DNA from: Escherichia coli O157:H7
GTDB lineage: Bacteria > Pseudomonadota > Gammaproteobacteria > Enterobacterales > Enterobacteriaceae
Direction: 5' to 3' (one strand)
Length of the DNA: 64,000 nt
Assembly (NCBI RefSeq): GCF_013167455.1
Contig: NZ_CP038328.1
Made by a program: the position numbers and the translations under genes. Shown piece by piece: positions 11,262-25,313 of this stretch. Positions within the stretch are counted from its first letter, which is position 1. The number at the start of each line of letters is the position of its first letter. Below the pieces are notes generated by a model. The model had not been told where the DNA came from and made no database searches. It worked only from the letters and a program-made list of their open reading frames with translations.

Positions 11262-12398
11262 GTGAGCGATTTCATCAACAATGTAAGTGTAGATTCAATT
11301 GGTCAACGCAACAGTTATGTGAAAACATGGGGTTGCGGAGGTTTGGAACTATGGAAGAACGGAACAGGCTTCAGTGAAATAGCGAATATCCTGGGTTCAA
11401 AACCCGGAACGATCTTCACTATGTTAAGGGATACTGGCGGCATAAAACCCCATGAGCGTAAGCGGGCTGTAGCTCACCTGACACTGTCTGAGCGCGAGGA
11501 GATACGAGCTGGTTTGTCAGCCAAAATGAGCATTCGTGCGATAGCTACTGCGCTGAATCGCAGTCCTTCGACGATCTCACGTGAAGTTCAGCGTAATCGG
11601 GGCAGACGCTATTACAAAGCTGTTGATGCTAATAACCGAGCCAACAGAATGGCGAAAAGGCCAAAACCGTGCTTACTGGATCAAAATTTACCATTGCGAA
11701 AGCTTGTTCTGGAAAAGCTGGAGATGAAATGGTCTCCAGAGCAAATATCAGGATGGTTAAGGCGAACAAAACCACGTCAAAAAACGCTGCGAATATCACC
11801 TGAGACAATTTATAAAACGCTGTACTTTCGTAGCCGTGAAGCGCTACACCACCTGAATATACAGCATCTGCGACGGTCGCATAGCCTTCGCCATGGCAGG
11901 CGTCATACCCGCAAAGGCGAAAGAGGTACGATTAACATAGTGAACGGAACACCAATTCACGAACGTTCCCGAAATATCGATAACAGACGCTCTCTAGGGC
12001 ATTGGGAGGGCGATTTAGTCTCAGGTACAAAAAACTCTCATATAGCCACACTTGTAGACCGAAAATCACGTTATACGATCATCCTCAGACTCAGGGGCAA
12101 AGATTCTGTCTCAGTAAATCAGGCTCTTACCGACAAATTCCTGAGTTTACCGTCAGAACTCAGAAAATCACTGACATGGGACAGAGGAATGGAACTGGCC
12201 AGACATCTAGAATTTACTGTCAGCACCGGCGTTAAAGTTTACTTCTGCGATCCTCAGAGTCCTTGGCAGCGGGGAACAAATGAGAACACAAATGGGCTAA
12301 TTCGGCAGTACTTTCCTAAAAAGACATGTCTTGCCCAATATACTCAACATGAACTAGATGAACCGCCCCGGGTTTCCTGGAGAGTGTTTTATCTGTGA
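11262..12398 (+). pseudogene. IS30 transposase, damaged: canonical N-terminus missing, C-terminus replaced by read-through into IS629
   Basis: ORF matches IS30 Tnp from ELWKNGTGFSEIANILG... to ...LAQYTQHELD; the native start (MRRTFTAEEKASVF) is absent and the last ~12 codons read into the IS629 inverted repeat. Confidence 0.7.
11288..12357 (+). mobile_element. IS30 remnant (left IR TGTAGATTCAATTGGTCAACGCAACAG present; 3' end cut off by the IS629-like insertion)
   Basis: IS30 terminal repeat and transposase recognised from memory; the right end with its IR is missing. Confidence 0.75.
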
Positions 12399-12400
12399 AC

Positions 12401-13291
12401 TCAGGCTGCCAGATCATCGTTTCCGATGGAAGCATAATAAGCTTTTTCTGCTTCTGCCGGAGGAGTATGGCCCAGCCTTCCCAGCAATCGTCGATTGTTA
12501 TACCAGTCCACCCACGTTAGTGTGGCCAGTTCCACTTCTGCACGGTTTTTCCAGCTCTTACGGTGTATTACCTCCGCTTTGTAAAGACCATTGATGCTCT
12601 CAGCCATCGCGTTGTCATACGAGTCGCCTGTACTCCCTGTTGATGCCAGTAATCCGGCTTCTTTTAGTCGCTCCGTATAGGCCAGTGACACATACTGAGA
12701 GCCTTTATCGCTGTGATGGATGGTGCCAGACGGACGACGGGCCCACAACGCCTGCTCCAGCGCATCCAGCACGAATGTCGTTTCCATAGACGATGAGACC
12801 CGCCACCCCACGATGTATCCGGCAAACACATCAATGATAAACGCCACATAGACGAAGCCCTGCCATGTGCTGACGTAAGTAAAATCAGCCACCCACAGCT
12901 GGTCAGGTCGTTCTGCCACGAACTGACGGTTTACGCGGTCGCCTGCGGCAACGGCTTTCCGGCTGATGGTCGTACGGACCTTTTTACCCCGGAGAACACC
13001 GGCAAGTCCCATAACCGCCATGAGACGTGCCACTGTACATCTGGCCACCCTGATTCCTTCCCGTAACAACTGACGCCAGACTTTACGCACACCGTACACC
13101 TGATGATTTTCATCGTATACGCGCTGTATCTCTCTCTTCAGCCAGTCGTCGTGCTGCGCACGGGCACTGCGTTTATCCGGATGATGTCGCTGTTGCTGAC
13201 AATGGTAATACGTTGACGGGGCAATATGCAGTTCGCTGCATACCGGTCCGACCCCGTACTGCTCACGCAGCTTATCCAGCAGTGGCATCAT
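12401..13291 (-). CDS. IS3-family transposase OrfB (DDE integrase domain)
   Basis: 296 aa, [16 protein letters not shown]...; rve-type catalytic domain recognised. Confidence 0.85.
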
Positions 13292-13614
13292 TTTTTCCAG
13301 AGGCGGTCGAACTCCGCCTTCGCAAAATAAGCGGAAGCCTGGCGAAGGATATCGTTACTGCGGCGCAGTTCACGATTTTCACGTTCCAGCTCTTTCAGAC
13401 GCTGACGTTCAGCGCTGGTGAGCCCACCATCACCGCCCCCGGTATCCCGCTCATGCTGGCGAACCCAGACACGCAGAGTCTCCGGCGTACAGCCAATCTT
13501 TGGGGCAATGGAACAAATTGCCGCCCACTGTGAGTCATATTCATCCTGACTTTCCAGAACCATACGAATCGCCCGCTGACGGACTTCGGGGGAAAAACGA
13601 GTATTTTTAGTCAT
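13288..13614 (-). CDS. IS3-family transposase OrfA (HTH / leucine zipper)
   Basis: 108 aa, [22 protein letters not shown]...; overlaps orfB as expected for a -1 frameshift fusion. Confidence 0.85.
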
Positions 13615-13668
13615 CCTGTTTACCTCTTTCTCAGGGAGTTTAGTCTCCAGGATTTCCGGGGCGGTTCA

Positions 13669-14354
13669 ACACGATGGCTGAGGCGATTACCTACCGCCAG
13701 AAATTCAACGAACGTGAGGTGATGCTCTTATGGCCTGACTTCATCGCCTACAACCTGAAAAGTGGCAAAAACGAAACGTTCCCCGCGCCTGCTTATGCGT
13801 GCGGCCTTCGTGCGTACATTGACCATGAGCAGGGCTGGCACAAATCGCTGTCCAACGTTCCGGTTAAAAATGTGCTTGGGATGTCGAGGCATGTGTTCTG
13901 GTCGTTGCAGGCCGAAGACAGTGATGCCAACAGCCTCAACAACAAAGAAATCACGACCATTATTCGTCGCAACGGGTTCCGCTTCTGGGGCAACCGCACA
14001 CCGGAAACGAACGCCTACATCTTTGAGGTGTATACCCGAACCGCACAGGTGCTGGCTGATTCAATTGCGGAAGCGCAGTTTGAAACCATCGACAGTCCAC
14101 TGACACCTGCGAACGTGAAGGATGTTATCAGTGCCATCAGGGCAAAACTGGATTCACTGGTTACTGCCGGGAAACTGATTGGCGCGGAGTGCTGGTATGA
14201 CATCGAGGATAACAGCACCACGAATTTACGTCAGGGGCGTGTGCGTATTCGCTACAAATATACGCCCGTTCCTCCGCTGGAAGACATGGAGCTTTACCAG
14301 TCGTTTACTGATGAATTCTTTGGTCCCGCATTTGCGGTGCTGGGAGGTGCCTGA
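13669..14354 (+). pseudogene. P2 FI-like contractile tail sheath, C-terminal fragment (5' end cut off by IS629 copy 1)
   Basis: 226 codons continuing straight from the IS junction; resembles the sheath C-terminus; a full sheath is ~390 aa. Confidence 0.7.
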
Positions 14355-14866
14355 TGGCTGTACCAAAACATCTTCGCTTTTTTACGCTGTTTGTGGATGG
14401 TGAAAACGAAGTGGGTAAGGTGACGTCCGTCACCCTGCCTAAACTGACGCGCAAAACCGACAGCTACCGGGGTGGTGGCATGATGGGTGCGGTAAGTATT
14501 GACCTCGGCCTGGACGACTCCGCGCTTGATGCGAGCTTTGTCATGGGGGGCGCAGTTCGTGAGCTGTTCCTGAAGTATGGCGGCACGATTGACGGCACGC
14601 TACTGCGTTTTGCGGGGGAATACTACACCGATGATGAAAGCGACCTGTATGAAGTCGAAATGCGCGGACGTGTGACGGAAATTGATATGGGGGAAGCCAA
14701 ACAGGGCGAAGCCACATCACACACTTACGCCATTAAAAACACCTACTACAAGCTGAGTGTTAACGATCGCCCGTTGTGGGAGATTGACCTGCTGAACTTC
14801 ATTTACCGGAAGGACGGCAAGGACATTGTGCCCGATCGCATCCGTTCCGCGCTTGGGCTTGGCTGA
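14354..14866 (+). CDS. P2 FII-like tail tube protein
   Basis: 170 aa; TLPKLTRK...YRGGGMMGA...DLGLDD motif pattern of P2 FII. Confidence 0.8.
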   Translation: MAVPKHLRFFTLFVDGENEVGKVTSVTLPKLTRKTDSYRGGGMMGAVSIDLGLDDSALDASFVMGGAVRELFLKYGGTIDGTLLRFAGEYYTDDESDLYEVEMRGRVTEIDMGEAKQGEATSHTYAIKNTYYKLSVNDRPLWEIDLLNFIYRKDGKDIVPDRIRSALGLG

Positions 14867-14920
14867 TAAGTAATATGCAGGCGGCGCAGTGCGTCGCCTC
14901 TGACTGAAAGGAGTTTCCTG

Positions 14921-15450
14921 ATGAAAGAGACGAAAAACATCGATACCGAAAACACGGTAGTTACTGACACTGTGAAAGAAACCAGTGAGCGTGGTGTAAA
15001 ACTTACCCAACCAATTGAGCGAGGCGGCGAAAAAATCACGTATGTGGAGATCACCGGGGCTATTGAGCAGGCTGGATCTCTGCGAGATTTGTCGCTGTCT
15101 GATGTGCTGAATCTGAAAGCGGAATCCATGTTTACGCTGCTGTCACGCGTGACATCACCGCGACTGGATGAAGTGACGATCAAAAAAATGGCATCCCGTG
15201 ACTTTATTCAGTTATGTGTGGTTGCCGTAAATTTTTTGAGCGGTGCGGACTCTGGCGGGAAGAACGAACAGGCGACGGAAGCCTGATCACGGTTGTGTGC
15301 TTTGAGCACATAGAAGACTTTGTGGCAGATATTGCCGTTATTTTTAACTGGTCGCCCGCCGAAATCTTCATGATGACGCCCGGCGAAGTGGTTAGCTGGC
15401 GTGAGCGGGCGGCACTTCGCAGCGGGAATGCAGACAATGAAGACTCTTGA
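14921..15450 (+). CDS. tail assembly chaperone GpE and its -1 frameshift product E+E' (slippery T TTT TTG at 15232-15238)
   Basis: E frame ends at 15286; an overlapping -1 frame ORF (15214-15450) begins at the TTTTTTG heptamer, the conserved P2 E/E' recoding arrangement just upstream of the tape measure gene. Confidence 0.65.
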
Positions 15451-17527
15451 TATCCGGGTCGCTTTCAGCGCCGTTGACAGGCTGACCCGACCTGCCGAAA
15501 ACGCACGCCGCCTGATGGGGCAGTTTGGTGACTCCATCCAGCGAACGCAGGGGGCGATCAAAAATCTCGAGCGTCAGGCGCGATCATTTGAGCGCGCCCG
15601 CGACGCTGTCAGTAAAGCGGATGCTGGCATCGTGAAAGCACGACGCCAGCTTAACGCCCTTAATCAGTTACAACGCACGGGTACAGTGCTCAGCGAAAAA
15701 CAACAAAAGCTGATGCAGCAGTTAAGCACCCGGCTTGAACGCCTGAATGAATCGCGCACACGGGAAATTCAGAAAATGAGGGAACTTGGCGGAGAGCTGA
15801 AACGCCACGGCATTTCCCTGACAGGCAGCGATAACACCATTCAGCAGGCCATCAGACGCACCGAACAATACAACAACCAGCTTGAACGCGAACGGCAGGC
15901 GCTTGCGCGTGTAACGCAGGCGCGTGAGCGGTATTCGCACGCGCAGGAAACCGCGGGAAAACTGAAAACAGGTGGTGCGCTGGCAATTGGTGCGGCAGCG
16001 GCGGGCGGCTATGCTGCCGGGCGTTTTTTGCAGCCTGCGATCGGGTTCGGCAAAGAGATGTCCCGCGTTCAGGCACTGACGCGAATCGACAAAAACAGCC
16101 CGCAGTTTAAGGCGCTGCGTGAGCAGGCGTTAAAACTTGCTGAAACACAGTTTACTGCGAGTGATGCCGCCAGTGGGCAGAGCTTTCTGGCAATGGCTGG
16201 TTTTACTCCGCAGGCCATTCAGGCCGCATTGCCCGGTGTTCTTAATATGGCGCTGGCAGGTGGCGTCGAACTCGGCGAGACGGCTGATATAGGCTCCAAT
16301 ATCCTCACACAGTTCAACCTGACAGCCGATCAAATGGACCGGGTGGGCGATACGCTGACAGCAGCATTTACCCGGACCAATACTGATTTACGCGCGCTGG
16401 GCGAAACCATGAAGTATACCGGTCCGGTTGCCGCAAAACTTGGTATCAGTCTTGAAGAAGCGGCGGCCATGGCCGGGATGCTTGCCAATAATGGTCTTCG
16501 CGGAAGCGATGCTGGCACGGCCATGCGCGCAAGTCTGTCCCGCCTTGCATCACCGCCAAAAGCTGCGGCTGATGCACTGAAAGAGCTGGGGGTGTCAGTT
16601 GCTGACGCCAGAGGCAAAATGCGCCCGATGGAGGATGTGCTGCTTGATCTCTATAAGGCGACACAAAAATACGGACAGGTGGACCAGGTCTCCTTCTTCA
16701 AGGACATCGCCGGAGAAGAGGCGTTCGTTGGTTTGCAGACGCTTGTTGCGGCGGCTGGTTCAGGAGAGCTGCAAAAACTGACCAGAGAATTGCAGGGGGC
16801 AAGGGGAGAGGCCGATCGCGTCGCAAAAGTAATGGCTGATAATCTTGATGGGGACCTGAAAAATCTCGACAGCGCATGGGAAGGTCTTCGTATTCGCATC
16901 AGTGATCTGGTTGACGGTCCGCTGCGTTCTGTCACGCAGTGGCTCACGCGGGTGCTTGAAAAAATCACCTCGCTGGCGCAGGCCCATCCGGTACTGACGC
17001 GCCAGCTACTGATAGCAGGCGGTGCGTTGCTGGCAATGACTGCAACGATTGGCTCGTTGTCGCTGGTTATTGGGGTGCTTTACGGGAAGCTGGCCACCCT
17101 GCGTCTTGGTTTTGACATTCTTACCCGGTCAATGAATGTCGTCAGGGTGTTACCTGCGCTATGGGGAATGGTGACGGGTTCCGTTTCTTTACTGGGAGGC
17201 GTTATCGGGGCGTTGTTCAGTCCGGTTGGTCTTATCGTGGCTGCGCTTGCCGGAGCTGCCGTTCTTATCTGGAAATACTGGGATCCTATCAGGGCTTTCT
17301 TTGCCGGGGTGTTCAGCGGGATTATGGAAAGGCTGACCCCGTTGCGCGACACCTTTGAACGGTTTGGCCCTGTTTTTGACGTAATCGGAAGCGGTTCAGC
17401 CAGGTGTTTAACTGGTTTAAATCGCTGCTGTCACCGATGGAGTCCAGCAAGGAAACGCTGGATAAATGTACCAGTGCTGGCGAGGTATTCGGTAACGTTC
17501 TTGGTGGTGCGTTACAGCTTGTTCTGA
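15401..17527 (+). CDS. tail tape measure protein (GpT-like), N-terminal reading frame
   Basis: 708 codons, coiled-coil rich with hydrophobic segments; position after E/E'. Frame changes near 17380-17527. Confidence 0.75.
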   Translation: MSGRHFAAGMQTMKTLDIRVAFSAVDRLTRPAENARRLMGQFGDSIQRTQGAIKNLERQARSFERARDAVSKADAGIVKARRQLNALNQLQRTGTVLSEKQQKLMQQLSTRLERLNESRTREIQKMRELGGELKRHGISLTGSDNTIQQAIRRTEQYNNQLERERQALARVTQARERYSHAQETAGKLKTGGALAIGAAAAGGYAAGRFLQPAIGFGKEMSRVQALTRIDKNSPQFKALREQALKLAETQFTASDAASGQSFLAMAGFTPQAIQAALPGVLNMALAGGVELGETADIGSNILTQFNLTADQMDRVGDTLTAAFTRTNTDLRALGETMKYTGPVAAKLGISLEEAAAMAGMLANNGLRGSDAGTAMRASLSRLASPPKAAADALKELGVSVADARGKMRPMEDVLLDLYKATQKYGQVDQVSFFKDIAGEEAFVGLQTLVAAAGSGELQKLTRELQGARGEADRVAKVMADNLDGDLKNLDSAWEGLRIRISDLVDGPLRSVTQWLTRVLEKITSLAQAHPVLTRQLLIAGGALLAMTATIGSLSLVIGVLYGKLATLRLGFDILTRSMNVVRVLPALWGMVTGSVSLLGGVIGALFSPVGLIVAALAGAAVLIWKYWDPIRAFFAGVFSGIMERLTPLRDTFERFGPVFDVIGSGSARCLTGLNRCCHRWSPARKRWINVPVLARYSVTFLVVRYSLF

Positions 17528-18240
17528 CGCCTGCAAAAATGTTGCTGGATACGCTGGCGTGGATACTTGAAAAACTCGGTGTGCTTCCGGATGAAGCGGA
17601 AAGGGCGCGCAAGAAAATCGAAGACGCACAACGTGCGGCCATTCTTCAGGACAAGGTTGCTCTGTTTCAGGGAGACATTGCGAAAATCAATCCGCCGAAG
17701 TCTGCGGGAAATAGCAATGGCACCGGAGATGATAAACCCAAAGACAACAAACCTCTCACAGACAGCAATACCGGCACGCTACGCAGACTCAGCAAAATTG
17801 CTGATAACACAGGTAAGCTGGTTGATGAGACAAAAAAACGCATTGGCCCCGGCGATATTGTCTTTAAGAACCTGCCCCGCGCACTTGCTGTTCGTGGGGA
17901 GTGGCAGGAGCGGAAGATTGCGCAGGTCAGTAAGCCTGCCCCCGCAATTAATATCACACCCGTGGTCCCGGCTCCGCTGCCTCCGGCGCTGGTCCCTGTT
18001 GTTGCGGCCAGCTCCCGCCCGGTGGTGGAGGCCATACGATCGCCAGTGGCATCAGTTCCTGCAACTTCCCGTAACCGGGAGCCTGTTGCCTCCGGATTTG
18101 GCGGTGAAATTCATGTTCATCTGCATAACGTTGTTACGCAGAATCCCCGCGAACTGGCGAAACTGGTCGGCGAAATGGTCAGGGCAGAAATGGAACGGCG
18201 CGCCCGTGCCAGGCGTGGCAGTTTTTACGATAAAGATTGA
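17404..18240 (+). CDS. tail tape measure protein, C-terminal segment in a different frame (apparent frameshift)
   Basis: 278 codons in the +2 frame relative to the upstream part; this frame opens after a stop at 17377-17379. Confidence 0.6.
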   Translation: MFNWFKSLLSPMESSKETLDKCTSAGEVFGNVLGGALQLVLTPAKMLLDTLAWILEKLGVLPDEAERARKKIEDAQRAAILQDKVALFQGDIAKINPPKSAGNSNGTGDDKPKDNKPLTDSNTGTLRRLSKIADNTGKLVDETKKRIGPGDIVFKNLPRALAVRGEWQERKIAQVSKPAPAINITPVVPAPLPPALVPVVAASSRPVVEAIRSPVASVPATSRNREPVASGFGGEIHVHLHNVVTQNPRELAKLVGEMVRAEMERRARARRGSFYDKD

Positions 18241-18246
18241 GGAGTC

Positions 18247-18741
18247 ATGGCCATGATGATGATCTACGGCATGTTTGTTTTTGAGCTGCGCACGTTGCCG
18301 CATCAGCAGTTACAGCAAAACAAAAGCTGGCGACATGTGAAAAATGAACGCGTTAACCGTTCAGCAAGCTGGCAGTATATCGGTGCAGGTGATGATCGCA
18401 TCGTTCTTTCTGGTGTTCTTTATCCTGAGATTACTGGTGGCGAAGTGTCGCTGTCGTTGTTGACCACGCAGGCATATACAGGACGTCCTTGGCCTTTGAT
18501 TGATGGCGTCGGGCAGATTTACGGCATGTATGTCCTGACCGGAACGAATACGACCCGCTCCGAGTTTGATCGCTACGGTAAGGCGAAAAAGATAGAATTT
18601 TCACTGACTCTTGAACGCTGTGATGAGGATTTGCGGGAGCGCCTGCAATCCTCATCGTTCAGCGATATGCTGTCCGGCTTCAAAGATAAGGTGACATCAT
18701 CCCTTAATAGCGCGGCCAGCTCAGTTAAGGGGCTGCTCTGA
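18247..18741 (+). CDS. P2 GpU-like tail protein
   Basis: 164 aa; MMMIYGMFVFELRTLPHQQLQ... resembles P2 U. Confidence 0.8.
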   Translation: MAMMMIYGMFVFELRTLPHQQLQQNKSWRHVKNERVNRSASWQYIGAGDDRIVLSGVLYPEITGGEVSLSLLTTQAYTGRPWPLIDGVGQIYGMYVLTGTNTTRSEFDRYGKAKKIEFSLTLERCDEDLRERLQSSSFSDMLSGFKDKVTSSLNSAASSVKGLL

Positions 18742-18864
18742 TTTAACGTATGTCGCCAATTTCCTGATGAAGGTGACTGGCGACTTGCTGTTGTATGTCC
18801 TTCTCAGAAAATTGTTTTTGAATAACAAATAACAGGATTTTATAATCTCTTAACCTTATAACAT

Positions 18865-21135: not shown

Positions 21136-21450
21136 TTATTCTGGGAATAAGGTCTGAATATTCTTTTTTATTTTATAAAAATTGCATTCAACTCCGCTAG
21201 GCTGATTAGCCTGGTATGTTTCCTTGATGCTAACGGTATTGAAGGGGAGGTTGTCCTCTGGCCATTCGGCCATCCAGTAGGCAAATGCTGGGTTGCGCTT
21301 TATGAGTGCTAGCCCAGCCAGAAAGGCCGCGCGTTGCGCGCGGCTGCGTTCGGAGGCTGGCAGGCTATCGAGGTAATTGCACGCCTCCTGTTCACTCTTG
21401 ACGGCGGCGGGCTTCAGATAGAAACTTATCCGTCTGGTTGGTGTCGTCAT
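21136..21450 (-). CDS. ParR/StbB-like centromere-binding adaptor of a type II partition system
   Basis: 104 aa; RRISFYLKP...LDSLPASERSRAQRAAFLAGLALIKRNP resembles plasmid R1 ParR (recalled from memory). Confidence 0.65.
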   Translation of the reverse strand: MTTPTRRISFYLKPAAVKSEQEACNYLDSLPASERSRAQRAAFLAGLALIKRNPAFAYWMAEWPEDNLPFNTVSIKETYQANQPSGVECNFYKIKKNIQTLFPE

Positions 21451-21454
21451 TGGT

Positions 21455-22414
21455 TTACTCCTTGTTCATTGCGTACAACCCATTAACCAGAGCAAACTGT
21501 GGCACCCCGTCCGCGATGAAAGTCGCATTAACTCCGCAGGCTTCGCGGATAGCGGTTGCCACAATCTCCGCCCCGCCACCGACAACCATCACCCGCCCGT
21601 AACCCGAAAAAACCGCCAGCGCGCGGATCACGCGTTGTTTCAGTGTTTCTTCCTTTTCACGAATAACCGCCATCAGGCTGGCGTAATGCGCGTCATTGTG
21701 GATGTGCTGGCGCAGCCAGGCTTCATCATGGCGATGTTCGATAATGGTATTGGCGATGTGGTGACTGGTGCGCATACCGTTAGTGGCCATCACCGACAGT
21801 ACGGCATCGGCCATCAGAGAAACGCCTACGTGTGGATCGCAAAACACCTGGCTGATACCTGCCAGTTGCCCCTGAACCTTTGCCACATCCAGCGTGGTTC
21901 CGCCCAAATCCACAATCAGCAGGGATTCAAACGGACTCATGTCAGCCAGTGCCTTAAAGCCAGCAGGAATGGATTCAGGCATAACCCGTACGTTACGGAT
22001 AGTGAATGCTTCGCCGTTCTGGTACTCCACCGGGCGCATGACGTTCGCTTTTTTGCGGTTGATGTTGGCCATGTCCGGCTGTGCGTTTGTATCGAAATAC
22101 TCGCTCAGTGGCAGGGTGACAACCACATCCACTTCCTGTGGTGTGATGCCTGATTTGACCAGCGCGTGATGAATGGCAATTACATTCACATCGCTGTACT
22201 GGTATTGCGTGTCGGTCGTCTGGACAAAGCGATCGCTGACCGGATCAAAACCATAGCGCACGCCATCAAGCATGTAGTTCGCGGGCTGCGTGCCACCGAA
22301 TGGCGCAGACCATTCCGACTTGAAGCTGTTCGGGCTGATGGCGTTGCGGCGTTCGCCGTTCTCAGTCCATGCCAGCTTGATGTTGGTGGAGCCGTCGTCG
22401 ATACAAATTTTCAT
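21455..22414 (-). CDS. ParM/StbA-like actin-family partition ATPase
   Basis: 319 aa; actin-fold motifs IDDGSTNIK (phosphate 1), LIVDLGGTTLD (phosphate 2), VMVVGGGA (adenosine). Confidence 0.75.
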   Translation of the reverse strand: MKICIDDGSTNIKLAWTENGERRNAISPNSFKSEWSAPFGGTQPANYMLDGVRYGFDPVSDRFVQTTDTQYQYSDVNVIAIHHALVKSGITPQEVDVVVTLPLSEYFDTNAQPDMANINRKKANVMRPVEYQNGEAFTIRNVRVMPESIPAGFKALADMSPFESLLIVDLGGTTLDVAKVQGQLAGISQVFCDPHVGVSLMADAVLSVMATNGMRTSHHIANTIIEHRHDEAWLRQHIHNDAHYASLMAVIREKEETLKQRVIRALAVFSGYGRVMVVGGGAEIVATAIREACGVNATFIADGVPQFALVNGLYAMNKE

Positions 22415-22450
22415 GTCGCTTTTCCTTATGTTGATTAATTAATCGGTTAC

Positions 22451-22560
22451 AGGATTTTTAAATCCCGCTTTTGCCTGTTTTGTGCGCGCTTCATATATCG
22501 CGGCGCGTTTTTTGCTCATTTACGGGATTTGTGAGTCCCGTTTCTGTCTGTTTTTTGTTT
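22451..22560. repeat. two copies of a ~35 bp repeat, each containing a GGATTT..AAATCC-type palindrome; candidate parC-like centromere or operator
   Basis: aggatttttaaatcccgcttttgcctgttttg (22451-22485) and cgggatttgtgagtcccgtttctgtctgttttttg (22525-22560), directly upstream of the parM-like gene. Confidence 0.4.
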
Positions 22561-25313
22561 CCACTGGTCAGGCCACCCCGCAGCAGGTCTGCTTTGCGGC
22601 TGGCGCGTTCAGTGGTTTCACTGATTCTCTGTGCGTGCTCTGCGTCGCGGATGGCGCGCAGCATGTCAGAAAGCACGGTAACGGGTGTTTTCATGGTGTT
22701 CTGGTCCTGCTGAAGTGTGGATGCCAGGCGTGCGGCGGCTTCAGGGTCTGATGCCCCCAGCTGTGCCAGATAGCTGGCGACCGGGTTATGGCGGATCTCC
22801 GTGCTGCTTACGCCATGATTACGGCTCAGGCGCTGCCAGAGCTGCGTGATTCGGCTGTCCGGGCGGGTATCCGGTTTGCGTACAATTTCAAATCCCTGCG
22901 GTGCAATGATGCTGCCGTCAACGTACAGACTGCCGCCCCGTAACAGGTGCTGCATCTGTTGTTCACCGATATGCAGGCCGAGAGATTCAGCAGACTCCCG
23001 CCATTCTTTAGCGAGTAATTCGTGGTTATCAGGCAAAGGCCGCTGCTGTTTGCGGCTCTGTGTCCAGCTCTGCATTTCATCACTGCTGTTTTTTGCCTGT
23101 TTGTCACGAAGCGAACGCATCAGCGCCCGGCGTTCGTGCCGTTTCAGTGAGCGCATCCATTCGTTCACGTCAACGCCGTCAGGAAGCTGCGGCCACGGTG
23201 CTGGCCGTTCTTCCGGCTGTTCTGTCCCGTTGTTGTCCGTTTCCTGTACACGGGGACAGTTATTGCCACGAGTCCAAGGGGCGGCAGGGCCGCCCTGAAG
23301 GTCAAAACCATTTTCGCGGGCGCTGTCTTCTACTCCCGGTTTACGTCTTACCAGCTTCCAGTTATCCGGGTGCGTGCACACACGGGAGGATTCCCCGATG
23401 AGTGGTGACCAGATCCCGTAAATCTGTACGCTCTGTTCGCCGTAATCGTTCAGCTCATCTGCGAGGTCGTAGGCGGTGCGAATCAGGTAGTCCTTGCGTG
23501 GAACAAGTACGCCTCCCTGTTTCTCAATGTAGGTGGTAAAACATCCGGCATCAGCGGCAGCAAGAACCGCATCCATTGCGTCATCCTTCAGCCGTTGCGG
23601 GCCTTCCGGGTTGCGTGCCATCTGGCTGGCAAGGCGACGCAGTTCACGCCACACCTGACGGGAGGGGATGCCAAAGAACTGGAACTGGCGGACCCGGTGA
23701 AGGCGCGCCCAGCCAATGGCGCGTTCCACGCTCTCGGTCATTGATTTTCCGGTTTCGTGGTCAACGCGTGGTTTGCCTGTTTTCGGGTCGATGCCATCCA
23801 CGGCGCGGCTGTCCAGGTTTTTTCCGATGTAGGTGGCGATGTAGCTGGTTGGCGTGCCTTTTGAGCCGTCGACATACTCCGCCTTAAAGCGCGGAGTAAT
23901 ATCATCGCCCAGCTCGTGACGATCTTCCTGAATGGCAATATCGCGGGTGTGGGACACAATGGTGTCGATTTCTTCCGGATGAGCAAAGACCATCATATGC
24001 CAGTGCACGGTGCCGTCATGGTGAGGCTCCACCGTGCGGATGCCATACCAGCGCAGGCCGTCGCGGTTCAGTTTCTTGCGGACCGCCGCAAAAAACGTGT
24101 TAACCAGGTAATCGCTGGAGTCGCGCATGGTGGCCCCGTTCCATTTGGGATTCGGATGACCGTTCTCTGTTGTAGCGTGGTATTTTGACGGGCAGGTGAC
24201 AGTCAGAAACACCGCTTTGTCGCCACGGGCTTCGGCCAGAAGTTCCAGCCCCTTCATGGTGGCCATCATTTCTGCCTTACGGTGAACCGGGTTACTTACT
24301 CCCGCGTAATACACTGTCTCGAGATCAATCGTGAACCCGTCTTCGTTTTCCAGCATGAAACTTTTCAGGAAATCGCGTGTTTTCTCGCGCTGTGCGCGAA
24401 ACTCGCTTAACGCGTCCTGGCTCAGATAGGGCGATGTTTTTCTGGAAACCAGACAGGCGGCGCGGAGTTGTTCTTCTCTCCACTCGCAACGTAACAGCCA
24501 CAGTTTGCGTTTCCACCATTCCGCACAGGTCAGGCGAAGGATTGCGCCCGGCAGCAGCTCCGTGTCCGGTTCGTTCCTCCGGTCTTTGTCTGTTGTCAGT
24601 GCGTCATAATGTGGAGGCATGGCGTGCAGGTGTAACGCCATGCGGGCCAGCATCTGATACGCCTTCAGCGTTACATCCATGGTCAGTTCGCCATCGGTCG
24701 CGCCAAAGCCATCGCAGAGTTTTTCGAAGGTGCTGCTGAACATCGCCGCCGTCATGGTGGCCAGCGTCTGTATCTGGTGTTTGTTGAGCTGCGGCAGGTA
24801 AAGCAAATCGTCCAGGCGTTCGCGTCCGGCAAGGGAGCGATAACCCTGTGTCAGCCAGCGGTGATCGGTGCGCTCCAGACGTTCGAATATTTTGCGCAGG
24901 TTTCCGCGCGCGTAGCGTTCAGCCTGCCAGCTCTTTTTGCCTTTCTGACGATCGGCTTCCTGTTTTTTGCGCAGGAAGGAGAGGTGGCGAATAAGCGGAT
25001 CGCGCAGATAGGACGGCAGCAGGCGCAGCGAGGCCATGGCTTCATCCACCGCACCGCGTGCCTGTTTTCTGGCGTCTCCTGCCAGTGTGATGGTTTTGTC
25101 CTGTTTTTCCTGTGCGTCCAGGCTTTTATTAATCAGGTTGCCCAGCGGCGTTGCGGAGAACGCCGCATCAGCCATTTCCTGGCGGCGCTCGTTCTCTACC
25201 CGGTAGGCATCCAGCCAGGAGGAAAGCGCGGATTCAGGAGCGGGGATCCCCGTTCCTTCACGCCCCACTGCGTGGCGCGGTTGTTGCCAGTCCCTGATGT
25301 ACTCTGCCGTCAT
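22491..25313 (-). CDS. rolling-circle replication initiator endonuclease, P2 GpA-like
   Basis: 940 aa; HxH-type motif (GTVHWHMMVFAHP) and YIATYIGKN tyrosine region typical of the GpA family. Confidence 0.8.
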   Translation of the reverse strand: MTAEYIRDWQQPRHAVGREGTGIPAPESALSSWLDAYRVENERRQEMADAAFSATPLGNLINKSLDAQEKQDKTITLAGDARKQARGAVDEAMASLRLLPSYLRDPLIRHLSFLRKKQEADRQKGKKSWQAERYARGNLRKIFERLERTDHRWLTQGYRSLAGRERLDDLLYLPQLNKHQIQTLATMTAAMFSSTFEKLCDGFGATDGELTMDVTLKAYQMLARMALHLHAMPPHYDALTTDKDRRNEPDTELLPGAILRLTCAEWWKRKLWLLRCEWREEQLRAACLVSRKTSPYLSQDALSEFRAQREKTRDFLKSFMLENEDGFTIDLETVYYAGVSNPVHRKAEMMATMKGLELLAEARGDKAVFLTVTCPSKYHATTENGHPNPKWNGATMRDSSDYLVNTFFAAVRKKLNRDGLRWYGIRTVEPHHDGTVHWHMMVFAHPEEIDTIVSHTRDIAIQEDRHELGDDITPRFKAEYVDGSKGTPTSYIATYIGKNLDSRAVDGIDPKTGKPRVDHETGKSMTESVERAIGWARLHRVRQFQFFGIPSRQVWRELRRLASQMARNPEGPQRLKDDAMDAVLAAADAGCFTTYIEKQGGVLVPRKDYLIRTAYDLADELNDYGEQSVQIYGIWSPLIGESSRVCTHPDNWKLVRRKPGVEDSARENGFDLQGGPAAPWTRGNNCPRVQETDNNGTEQPEERPAPWPQLPDGVDVNEWMRSLKRHERRALMRSLRDKQAKNSSDEMQSWTQSRKQQRPLPDNHELLAKEWRESAESLGLHIGEQQMQHLLRGGSLYVDGSIIAPQGFEIVRKPDTRPDSRITQLWQRLSRNHGVSSTEIRHNPVASYLAQLGASDPEAAARLASTLQQDQNTMKTPVTVLSDMLRAIRDAEHAQRISETTERASRKADLLRGGLTSGNKKQTETGLTNPVNEQKTRRDI

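What the first reader, a model, noticed from the sequence alone, without database searches (positions are those of the whole stretch)
15225..15450. Conserved E/E' programmed -1 frameshift signal retained in the decayed prophage
The slippery heptamer T TTT TTG (15232-15238) lies at the end of gpE with an overlapping -1 frame ORF extending to 15450, as in P2. Its retention, together with intact tube and U genes, suggests the tail module was functional until recently or is under selection, as in tailocin-like or satellite use.
Basis: partly seen in the sequence, partly recalled or inferred. Interest (0 to 1): 0.3.

Follow-up and report, generated by a model that had tools for sequence, protein, structure and literature searches.

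The report
P2-type tail-chaperone frameshift site, relic prophage
The sequence is an intact copy of the well-known programmed -1 frameshift that P2-like phages use to make two tail-assembly chaperones, sitting in a known defective prophage of E. coli O157:H7; its survival is what neutral decay predicts, not evidence of continued use.

Summary
A 121-codon gene (14921-15286) lies between the tail tube and tape-measure genes. It carries T TTT TTG in phase at 15232-15238, inside the 85-nt stretch where the -1 frame is open. That frame runs to 15450 and ends 14 nt into the tape-measure gene. The -1 extension matches Pfam Phage_P2_GpE. All 14 Peduoviridae relatives examined keep the -1 frame open, with an in-phase slippery heptamer at the same Phe-Leu position. 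Substitutions show purifying selection only in the -1 frame. This is the known P2 E/E+E' signal, although the host element is P88-like rather than P2.

The inference that the tail module is under selection is not supported.
- The element matches the defective O157 prophage Sp13.
- The sheath gene lacks its first 498 bp in this window, next to IS1203/IS629.
- The tape-measure gene has a 1-nt deletion.
- D, baseplate, fibre, head and lysis genes are absent.
- O157 copies are essentially identical, so a neutral 7-nt motif would survive anyway.
- dN/dS is equally low for the dead genes.

One modest nuance: an overlapping in-phase heptamer A AAT TTT (15229-15235) is the only one left in a second allele found in 599 E. 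coli genomes.

The parts
14921..15286 (+). gene E homologue (tail assembly chaperone, 0 frame, 121 aa)
   Evidence: ORF. phrog_103 'tail protein', E=2e-35. Pfam PF10109 Phage_TAC_7 is sub-threshold at 17.2 bits against a 25-bit cut-off, but covers profile positions 2-78 of 79. It aligns with P2-type gpE of L-413C at 32% identity over the region up to the slip site, with 12 invariant columns across 11 phages. PGAP names it 'tail protein' WP_000665314.1.
15229..15238 (+). slippery run A AAT TTT TTG: the P2-type heptamer T TTT TTG (15232-15238) overlapping a second in-phase heptamer A AAT TTT (15229-15235)
   Evidence: T TTT TTG sits at the same Phe-Leu position in P88, 500465-2, SEN5, 3LV2017, RSA1, L-413C and Burkholderia BEK. 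The L-413C record annotates a -1 frameshift for E+E'. PMC3091744 states that P2 shifts at TTTTTTG.
15238..15450 (+). E' extension, -1 frame (70 codons plus stop after the slip; the frame is open from 15202)
   Evidence: Pfam PF06528 Phage_P2_GpE, 45.3 bits against a 23-bit cut-off, E=6e-12. phrog_1756, E=2e-39, covers fusion residues 103-174. dN/dS between the two E. coli alleles is 0.089 in the -1 frame, against 1.03 and 1.55 in the other two frames. A conserved motif is seen in 14 phages. PGAP annotates only the last 51 codons, from GTG 15295, as 'GpE family phage tail protein' WP_000333495.1.
13668..14354 (+). 5'-truncated tail sheath gene (first 498 bp and upstream region deleted next to the IS)
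   Evidence: Window 13668 joins to L002 position 8699, skipping 1,028 bp present in other O157 strains. Pfam Phage_sheath_1 starts at profile position 68.
12360..13669 (-). IS1203/IS629 (IS3 family) bordering the deletion; the left end at 12360 is approximate
   Evidence: PGAP annotation of the identical DNA, the junction mapping, and the ALIL pseudoknot at 13217-13333 on the minus strand.
14354..14866 (+). tail tube gene (FII homologue), intact
   Evidence: Pfam Phage_tube, E=1.3e-47, covers the full profile.
15437..18240 (+). tape-measure gene T, a pseudogene: a 1-nt deletion near 17392 gives a stop at 17527, with the rest of the gene in another frame
   Evidence: Alignment to 500465-2, P88, H10407 and others. 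PGAP marks it 'frameshifted' in strain F6667. Pfam PhageMin_Tail.
18247..18741 (+). gene U homologue, intact
   Evidence: Pfam Phage_P2_GpU, E=1.5e-38.

Best explanation
This is a genuine, sequence-intact copy of the tail-assembly-chaperone recoding cassette of P2-like myoviruses (P2 genes E and E+E'). It was inherited from a P88-like temperate phage.

Proposed mechanism, inferred by homology and not shown here: ribosomes translating E mostly stop at 15286 and give a 121-aa protein. A minority slip back one base on the U-rich run A AAU UUU UUG (15229-15238) and read on to 15450. That gives a 176-aa fusion whose C-terminal 'GpE' domain is conserved across the family. No downstream RNA structure appears to be needed.

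In this genome the cassette is a relic. It sits in the defective O157 prophage, which I infer to be the published Sp13. That prophage has lost or broken the sheath, tape-measure, D, baseplate, fibre, head and lysis genes. The signal persists because point-mutational decay has been negligible since the prophage died, not because it is being used.
For: Position, phase and overlap:
- The cassette lies between the tube and tape-measure genes.
- The heptamer is in phase and inside the overlap.
- The -1 ORF ends 14 nt inside T.

The -1 frame is coding and conserved:
- The -1 product matches PF06528 above the curated cut-off and phrog_1756.
- In 14 of 14 Peduoviridae relatives the -1 frame stays open 98-170 nt past the E stop, with an in-phase slippery heptamer at the aligned Phe(-Leu) codons.
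- In SEN5 and L-413C the -1 frame opens only 0-9 nt before the heptamer, leaving no room for separate initiation.
- Purifying selection is seen only in the -1 frame.
- In the overlap, the -1 reading is better conserved between alleles (12 of 16 residues) than the 0-frame tail (8 of 15).
- An annotated E+E' -1 frameshift exists in L-413C, and the literature places the P2 shift at TTTTTTG (PMC3091744).

No stimulatory fold:
- z = 0.32 for the window, and similarly unremarkable for L-413C, SEN5 and RSA1. This agrees with the absence of hairpins reported for P2 (PMC3091744).

Relic status:
- document the losses, against the intact relatives.
- O157 copies are identical over the block.
- PMC2669165 describes Sp13 as lacking most morphogenetic genes.
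Against: - Frameshifting was not measured here, and neither efficiency nor the exact slip codon is known for P88-like phages.
- The E part scores below Pfam's cut-off for Phage_TAC_7.
- U_UU.U_UU.G is not among the motifs ranked most efficient in E. coli by PMC4066793.
- Tube, E/E' and U are all still intact, and Sp13 is reported to excise, replicate and be packaged at a low level (PMC2669165). Some residual expression or role therefore cannot be strictly excluded.
- The identification with Sp13 is an inference. It rests on Sp13 being the only P2-like prophage of O157 Sakai, on a single copy per O157 genome, and on the 'derepression protein' gene, which may be the P4 epsilon-like gene reported on Sp13. 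It was not checked against the Sakai record.
Confidence: 0.85

Rival explanations
1. The tail block (tube, E/E+E', U) is kept by selection in O157. It would serve as part of a tailocin-like particle, or supply parts to a satellite or another phage.
For: Tube, E/E' and U have no disruptive mutations. Sp13 is inducible and its DNA is packaged by other prophages (PMC2669165).
Against: - The tape-measure gene is frameshifted in every O157 copy sampled.
- The sheath is truncated here, and none of the ten genomes covering the IS-sheath junction matches it in one contiguous piece; their spans differ.
- No D, baseplate or fibre genes remain.
- No sigma-70-like promoter was found in 13500-15600, and the region upstream of the sheath gene is deleted.
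- O157 has no other P2-like phage to serve (PMC2669165).
- Identity among O157 copies leaves no power to infer selection.
- The dead genes show the same low dN/dS.
- Electron microscopy of Sakai supernatants reported three particle types and attributed none to Sp13 (PMC2669165).
Confidence: 0.04
2. E' is a separate small gene translated from its own start, as PGAP annotates it (GTG 15295, 51 aa) or from ATG 15214. No frameshift is involved.
For: PGAP and most phage records annotate two separate CDSs. An ATG-initiated -1 ORF 15214-15450 exists.
Against: - In SEN5 and L-413C the -1 frame opens at or 9 nt before the heptamer.
- Conservation of the -1 reading begins at the slip site, upstream of GTG 15295.
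- phrog_1756 aligns from fusion residue 103.
- P2 is reported to make E+E' by frameshift (PMC3091744; L-413C annotation).
Confidence: 0.05
3. The -1 product arises by transcriptional slippage of RNA polymerase on the T6 run rather than by ribosomal slippage.
For: A homopolymeric T6 run is present. PMC4066793 notes that long A or U runs can cause transcriptional slippage.
Against: - Six residues is short for efficient slippage (my own knowledge).
- The second allele has only T4 (AAATTTTATG), yet E' is still under purifying selection.
- PHL101 uses G GGA AAG with no long run.
- The phase of the heptamers is conserved, which matters for ribosomes but not for polymerase.
Confidence: 0.04

Closest known systems
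Bacteriophage P2 genes E and E+E' (programmed -1 frameshift in the FETUD tail operon; Christie et al. 2002, cited in PMC3091744 and PMC5009743)
   Same: - The heptamer T TTT TTG is the same, at the same Phe-Leu position at the end of the chaperone domain.
- The -1 extension carries the PF06528 domain.
- The gene lies between the tube (FII) and tape-measure (T) genes, and E' overlaps the T start.
- No downstream hairpin is apparent.

   Different: - E is 121 aa and the fusion 176 aa, against 91 and 142 aa in P2.
- The E part is only about 32% identical to P2-type gpE and is below the Pfam cut-off.
- There are 16 codons between the slip site and the E stop, against 6 in L-413C.
- An extra overlapping heptamer, A AAT TTT, is present.
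- In P88-like phages gene D is divergent and upstream of the sheath gene, not at the end of the operon.
- Here the cassette sits in a dead prophage.
Phage lambda G/GT and the general 'conserved translational frameshift in dsDNA phage tail assembly genes' (Xu, Hendrix and Duda 2004; reviewed in PMC5009743)
   Same: The logic is the same: two chaperones share an N-terminus, are encoded just upstream of the tape-measure gene, and the longer one is made by a low-level -1 shift.
   Different: No sequence similarity was tested or expected. Lambda uses G GGA AAG, the heptamer seen here only in Mannheimia PHL101. Lambda is a siphovirus.
Prophage Sp13 of E. coli O157:H7 Sakai (CP-933T of EDL933, from my memory), the defective P2-like prophage (PMC2669165)
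   Same: - It is the single P2-like element of O157, and it lacks most morphogenetic genes.
- It carries integrase, repressor, replication genes and a gene annotated 'derepression protein', possibly the P4 epsilon-like gene reported on Sp13 (my inference).
   Different: This window has an extra 1,028-bp deletion next to IS1203. It removes the D fragment and the 5' end of the sheath gene. No contiguous match to this junction turned up among 5,426 complete E. coli genomes.

Membership tests
P2-type E/E+E' tail assembly chaperone frameshift cassette | Located between the tail tube gene and the tape-measure gene | tested here: met
   Tube 14354-14866, E 14921-15286, T from 15437.
P2-type E/E+E' tail assembly chaperone frameshift cassette | A second ORF in the -1 frame overlaps the 3' end of the first and ends at or in the tape-measure start | tested here: met
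   The -1 frame is open 15202-15450. It extends 164 nt past the E stop and overlaps T by 14 nt.
P2-type E/E+E' tail assembly chaperone frameshift cassette | An in-phase slippery heptamer X XXY YYZ inside the overlap (TTTTTTG in P2) | tested here: met
   T TTT TTG at 15232-15238, plus A AAT TTT at 15229-15235. About 0.0013 expected by chance.
P2-type E/E+E' tail assembly chaperone frameshift cassette | The -1 extension is homologous to the P2 GpE (E') domain | tested here: met
   PF06528, 45.3 bits against a 23-bit cut-off. 47.6% identity to P2-type phages over residues 131-172.
P2-type E/E+E' tail assembly chaperone frameshift cassette | The 0-frame part is homologous to gpE-type chaperones (Pfam Phage_TAC_7) | tested here: inconclusive
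   PF10109 scores 17.2 bits, below the 25-bit cut-off, though the match is full length. Support comes from phrog_103, E=2e-35, and from the alignment with L-413C gpE.
P2-type E/E+E' tail assembly chaperone frameshift cassette | The open -1 frame and slip site are conserved in relatives, and the -1 frame is under purifying selection | tested here: met
   14 of 14 relatives. dN/dS is 0.089 in the -1 frame against at least 1 in the other frames.
P2-type E/E+E' tail assembly chaperone frameshift cassette | The fusion protein is actually produced by ribosomal -1 frameshifting | not testable with these tools
   Needs a reporter assay or mass spectrometry. Inferred from P2 (PMC3091744).
Functional contractile tail module / R-type tailocin | A complete set of sheath, tube, tape measure, hub/spike (D, V), baseplate (W, J, I) and fibre genes | tested here: not met
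   The sheath is truncated and T is frameshifted. D, V, W, J, I and H are absent from the element, whereas intact relatives have them.
Functional contractile tail module / R-type tailocin | Own lysis cassette and late-gene activator/promoter | tested here: not met
   No holin, endolysin or ogr gene is annotated in the O157 element. The region upstream of the sheath gene is deleted. No promoter-like site in 13500-15600.
Phage satellite exploiting a helper | Mobilised by a helper's virion proteins, with retained genes serving that lifestyle | not tested
   PMC2669165 reports low-level packaging of Sp13 DNA but no transfer. Nothing links the tail genes to this.

The most novel reading that the evidence does not exclude
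In P88-like E. coli prophages, the operative slip site may be the heptamer one codon upstream of the P2 site (A AAU UUU), or the site may be migrating there.

- The window allele carries both heptamers as a 10-nt run, A AAT TTT TTG.
- A second allele has lost the P2 heptamer (T TTT ATG). It is near-invariant in 599 of 5,426 genomes, including a near-complete prophage in O55:H7 CB9615. It keeps A AAT TTT, and its E' remains under purifying selection.
- Klebsiella Kp4850-1 has C CCT TTC at the same upstream position.

If this is right, the family shows a natural one-codon relocation of a programmed frameshift site. The window allele would then be a double-site form that could be an intermediate in that move.
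Probability: 0.4. Interest if true: 0.3.

Novelty: already known. Interest (0 to 1): 0.1.

Why it matters
It matters little beyond annotation. The two CDSs that PGAP calls 'tail protein' and 'GpE family phage tail protein' in about 1,400 E. coli genomes are really one recoded gene pair, E and E+E'.

The case is also a useful caution. An intact short regulatory motif in a young pseudogenised prophage says nothing about selection. dN/dS against living phages cannot detect relaxation that began after the prophage died.

The two slip-site alleles offer a cheap natural experiment on which heptamer is used in E. coli.

Tried and rejected
It is uninformative. The truncated and frameshifted genes give the same low values as the intact ones. 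E/E' has only 0-3 differences, so no ratio can be computed.
- **Downstream stimulatory RNA structure.** The 52 nt after the slip site fold no better than shuffles (z = 0.32). The 92-nt fold gives z = -1.88, driven by a hairpin about 55 nt downstream, too far to act as a stimulator. P2-type, SEN5 and RSA1 sequences are also unremarkable.
- **Rfam.** Nothing matches at E/E'. The only hit is the ALIL pseudoknot of the neighbouring IS.
- **NCBIfam.** No hit for E or for the fusion.
- **Christie et al. 2002 (PMC135442).** Not held, so details of the P2 experiments come second-hand from PMC3091744.
- **Search for the window's IS-sheath junction in complete E. coli genomes.** No contiguous match was seen, so the exact strain or configuration was not identified.
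- **The A7 run at 15182-15188 as an alternative slip site.** Rejected. It is not in X XXY YYZ phase, and the -1 frame there closes at 15199-15201.
- **The in-phase TTTTTTG inside T (16024-16030).** Rejected as chance, because the -1 frame closes after 26 codons.

Full report
**1. What is in the sequence**

- The ORF 14921-15286 (121 aa, ATG start) lies between a tail tube gene (14354-14866, Pfam Phage_tube, E=1e-47) and a tape-measure gene starting at ATG 15437.
- Its codons around the site read GTA AAT TTT TTG. TTTTTTG at 15232-15238 is therefore in the X XXY YYZ phase needed for tandem tRNA slippage.
- The -1 frame is open from 15202 to the TGA at 15448-15450. The heptamer thus sits inside an 85-nt overlap, and the -1 frame continues 164 nt past the E stop and 14 nt into T. 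The +1 frame continues only 19 nt.
- The predicted products are E (121 aa) and a 176-aa fusion: 106 residues of E plus 70 residues of E'.

**2. Is it more than chance?**

- The bare heptamer is common, with 41 copies in the window on both strands against 23 expected.
- In phase within long open frames it occurs once in 21,494 codons, about 0.0013 expected in the overlap. Only 5% of positions have a -1 frame open for 71 codons.
- The context and the conservation described below remove any remaining doubt.

**3. Evidence that the -1 frame codes for a conserved protein made as a fusion**

- The fusion's residues 135-170 match Pfam PF06528 (Phage_P2_GpE) at 45.3 bits against a 23-bit cut-off.
- PHROG 1756 aligns from residue 103, that is, from the slip site. 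PHROG 103 covers the E part.
- tblastn finds two-frame matches in many Peduoviridae, and E'-only matches at 47.6% identity in P2-type phages.
- I examined 14 sequences: the window, P88, 500465-2, 503458, P88_4B11, Klebsiella Kp4850-1 and 3LV2017, Salmonella SEN5, Yersinia YenM_42.18 and L-413C, Ralstonia RSA1, a Zymomonas plasmid-prophage, Mannheimia PHL101 and Burkholderia BEK. In all 14 the -1 frame stays open 98-170 nt past the E stop, and an in-phase slippery heptamer lies in the overlap.
- Eight of the 14 have T TTT TTG. The others have T TTT TTC, T TTT TTT, G GGA AAG, C CCT TTC or A AAT TTT.
- In a protein alignment, the slip codons fall on the same Phe-Leu (or Phe) column at the end of the chaperone domain.
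- In SEN5 and L-413C the -1 frame opens only 0 and 9 nt before the heptamer. This excludes a separately initiated E'.
- Between the two E. coli alleles, substitutions beyond the E stop give dN/dS of 0.089 in the -1 frame, against 1.03 and 1.55 in the other frames. Of the 23 differences over the full 210-nt E' segment, 15 fall at third positions of the -1 frame.
- Within the overlap, the -1 reading keeps 12 of 16 residues and the 0-frame tail 8 of 15.
- The L-413C record annotates 'gpE+E', -1 frameshift'.
- PMC3091744 states that P2 shifts at TTTTTTG to give E (91 aa) and E+E' (142 aa), and that no downstream hairpin is present.
- I also found no fold better than shuffles after the slip site in the window, L-413C, SEN5 or RSA1. 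Rfam has no match there.

**4. What the surrounding element is**

- The window is E. coli O157:H7 chromosome.
- The element lies between the tRNA Gly-Cys-Leu cluster next to pgsA and an integrase next to yecA.
- Its tail block (13668-18747) is 96.8% identical to phage 500465-2 and 93.7% identical to P88 (Peduoviridae, genera Gemsvirus and Xuanwuvirus). It is therefore P88-like rather than P2 itself.
- Intact relatives carry D, baseplate, fibre, lysis and head genes. So does a near-complete prophage at the same tRNA-Leu site in ETEC H10407.
- The O157 element has none of those genes. After U come an acetyltransferase gene, a lone fibre-assembly gene, an IS3 fragment, parM, a replication endonuclease gene, early genes and the integrase.
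- This fits the published description of Sp13, the only P2-like prophage of O157 Sakai. [quoted passage not shown] Equating the two is my inference.

**5. State of decay**

- *Tape measure.* T has a net 1-nt deletion near 17392 relative to seven relatives, with a stop at 17527. Other O157 strains match the block at 100% in one piece, so they share the deletion.
- *Sheath.* In this window a further 1,028 bp next to IS1203/IS629 is missing. The lost stretch includes an apparent IS30 remnant, the 267-bp D fragment, the upstream region and the first 498 bp of the sheath gene.
- *Ongoing erosion.* No complete genome was seen to match this junction in one contiguous piece. The records that cover it do so in two pieces spanning 421-844 bp, which suggests different configurations at this junction and continuing IS-mediated erosion.
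- *Promoter.* No promoter-like site lies in 13500-15600.

**6. Does retention imply selection?**

No.

- The window and strain F6667 have no differences in the 5,080-bp tail block, and identity is 99.976% over 12.3 kb. The expected number of neutral hits in a 7-nt motif is therefore far below one.
- dN/dS against living phages is 0.02-0.23 for every gene. That includes the truncated sheath (0.20-0.23) and the out-of-frame part of T (0.18-0.21). The divergence measured predates the death of the prophage, so the proposed test has no power.
- A tail cannot be made from the remaining genes.

**7. A nuance worth recording**

- One codon upstream lies a second in-phase heptamer, A AAT TTT (15229-15235).
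- E. coli P88-like prophages carry two near-invariant alleles of this region. The window allele is in 821 genomes. An allele reading GTA AAT TTT ATG is in 599 genomes, including a near-complete prophage in O55:H7 CB9615.
- The second allele lacks the P2 heptamer but keeps A AAT TTT and a selected E'. Klebsiella Kp4850-1 has C CCT TTC at the same upstream position.
- PMC4066793 places H_HH.U_UU.Y motifs, which include both of these, among the most efficient in E. coli, and does not list U_UU.U_UU.G among them.
- The operative site in this clade may therefore be the upstream heptamer. The two possible window products differ by one residue (VNFFER against VNFLER). This is untested.

**8. Verdict**

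The inference of selection or tailocin use is unsupported. The feature is an already known kind of signal in an already described defective prophage, so interest is low.

Noticed in passing
window 15229-15238; L005/L006 (phages 503458, P88_4B11); L017 16001-16141 (O55:H7 CB9615): There are two alleles of the slip region in E. coli P88-like prophages. A AAT TTT TTG is in 821 genomes. A AAT TTT ATG, with the P2 heptamer destroyed, is in 599 genomes. Each is at least 99% invariant over 141 nt. The upstream heptamer is the shared element.
   Followed up: partly
window 14867-15450 against L001, L016, L019-L022: The tube-E spacer and the 212 nt of E' are identical (0 differences) in six phages or prophages. 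Their sheath and tube genes differ by 2-3% from the window and their T genes by 2-23%. The window's T is closest to the CB9615 prophage, which carries the other E/E' allele. This indicates a mosaic module with breakpoints at the tube/E spacer and the E'/T junction.
   Followed up: partly
window 15373-15404 (PAM ATG at 15370-15372); L018 1502-1533: A type I-E CRISPR spacer in E. coli strain GmM066 matches the E' coding region perfectly over 32 nt. It is preceded in the phage sequence by ATG, which I recall to be a functional type I-E PAM. This would be a natural spacer against P88-like phages.
   Followed up: partly
L023 (ETEC H10407, NC_017633.1 2138000-2172000); L002 5320-8043: ETEC H10407 carries a near-complete P88-like prophage at the same tRNA-Leu site. 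IS30 is inserted in gene D at what appears to be the same junction as in O157, where IS1203 has in turn apparently inserted into the IS30 copy. This reflects either shared ancestry of an already disabled prophage or an IS30 hot spot.
   Followed up: partly
window 13217-13333 (- strand): The ALIL pseudoknot (Rfam RF01497, 121.5 bits) of IS1203/IS629 is a second, unrelated programmed -1 frameshift signal about 2 kb from the finding (PGAP marks the transposase as a programmed frameshift).
   Followed up: yes
window 16024-16030: A second in-phase T TTT TTG lies inside the tape-measure gene. The -1 frame closes after 26 codons, so it is probably chance.
   Followed up: yes
L006 1025-1076 (P88_4B11 allele): In the second allele, the 52 nt after the slip region fold into a hairpin of -18.9 kcal/mol. 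It starts a few nt after A AAT TTT and gives z = -1.75, with 14 of 200 shuffles folding at least as well. The window allele has no such fold. This is a weak hint that the allele lacking the P2 heptamer may use a stimulatory hairpin.
   Followed up: no
window about 21136-25313 and onward (by correspondence with L002 16167-21019 and L003): The early region of the element looks intact. It carries parM and a partition gene, a 940-aa replication endonuclease gene, a gene annotated 'derepression protein' (possibly the P4 epsilon-like gene reported on Sp13), regulators and an integrase. This is consistent with the reported inducible excision and replication of Sp13 (PMC2669165).
   Followed up: no
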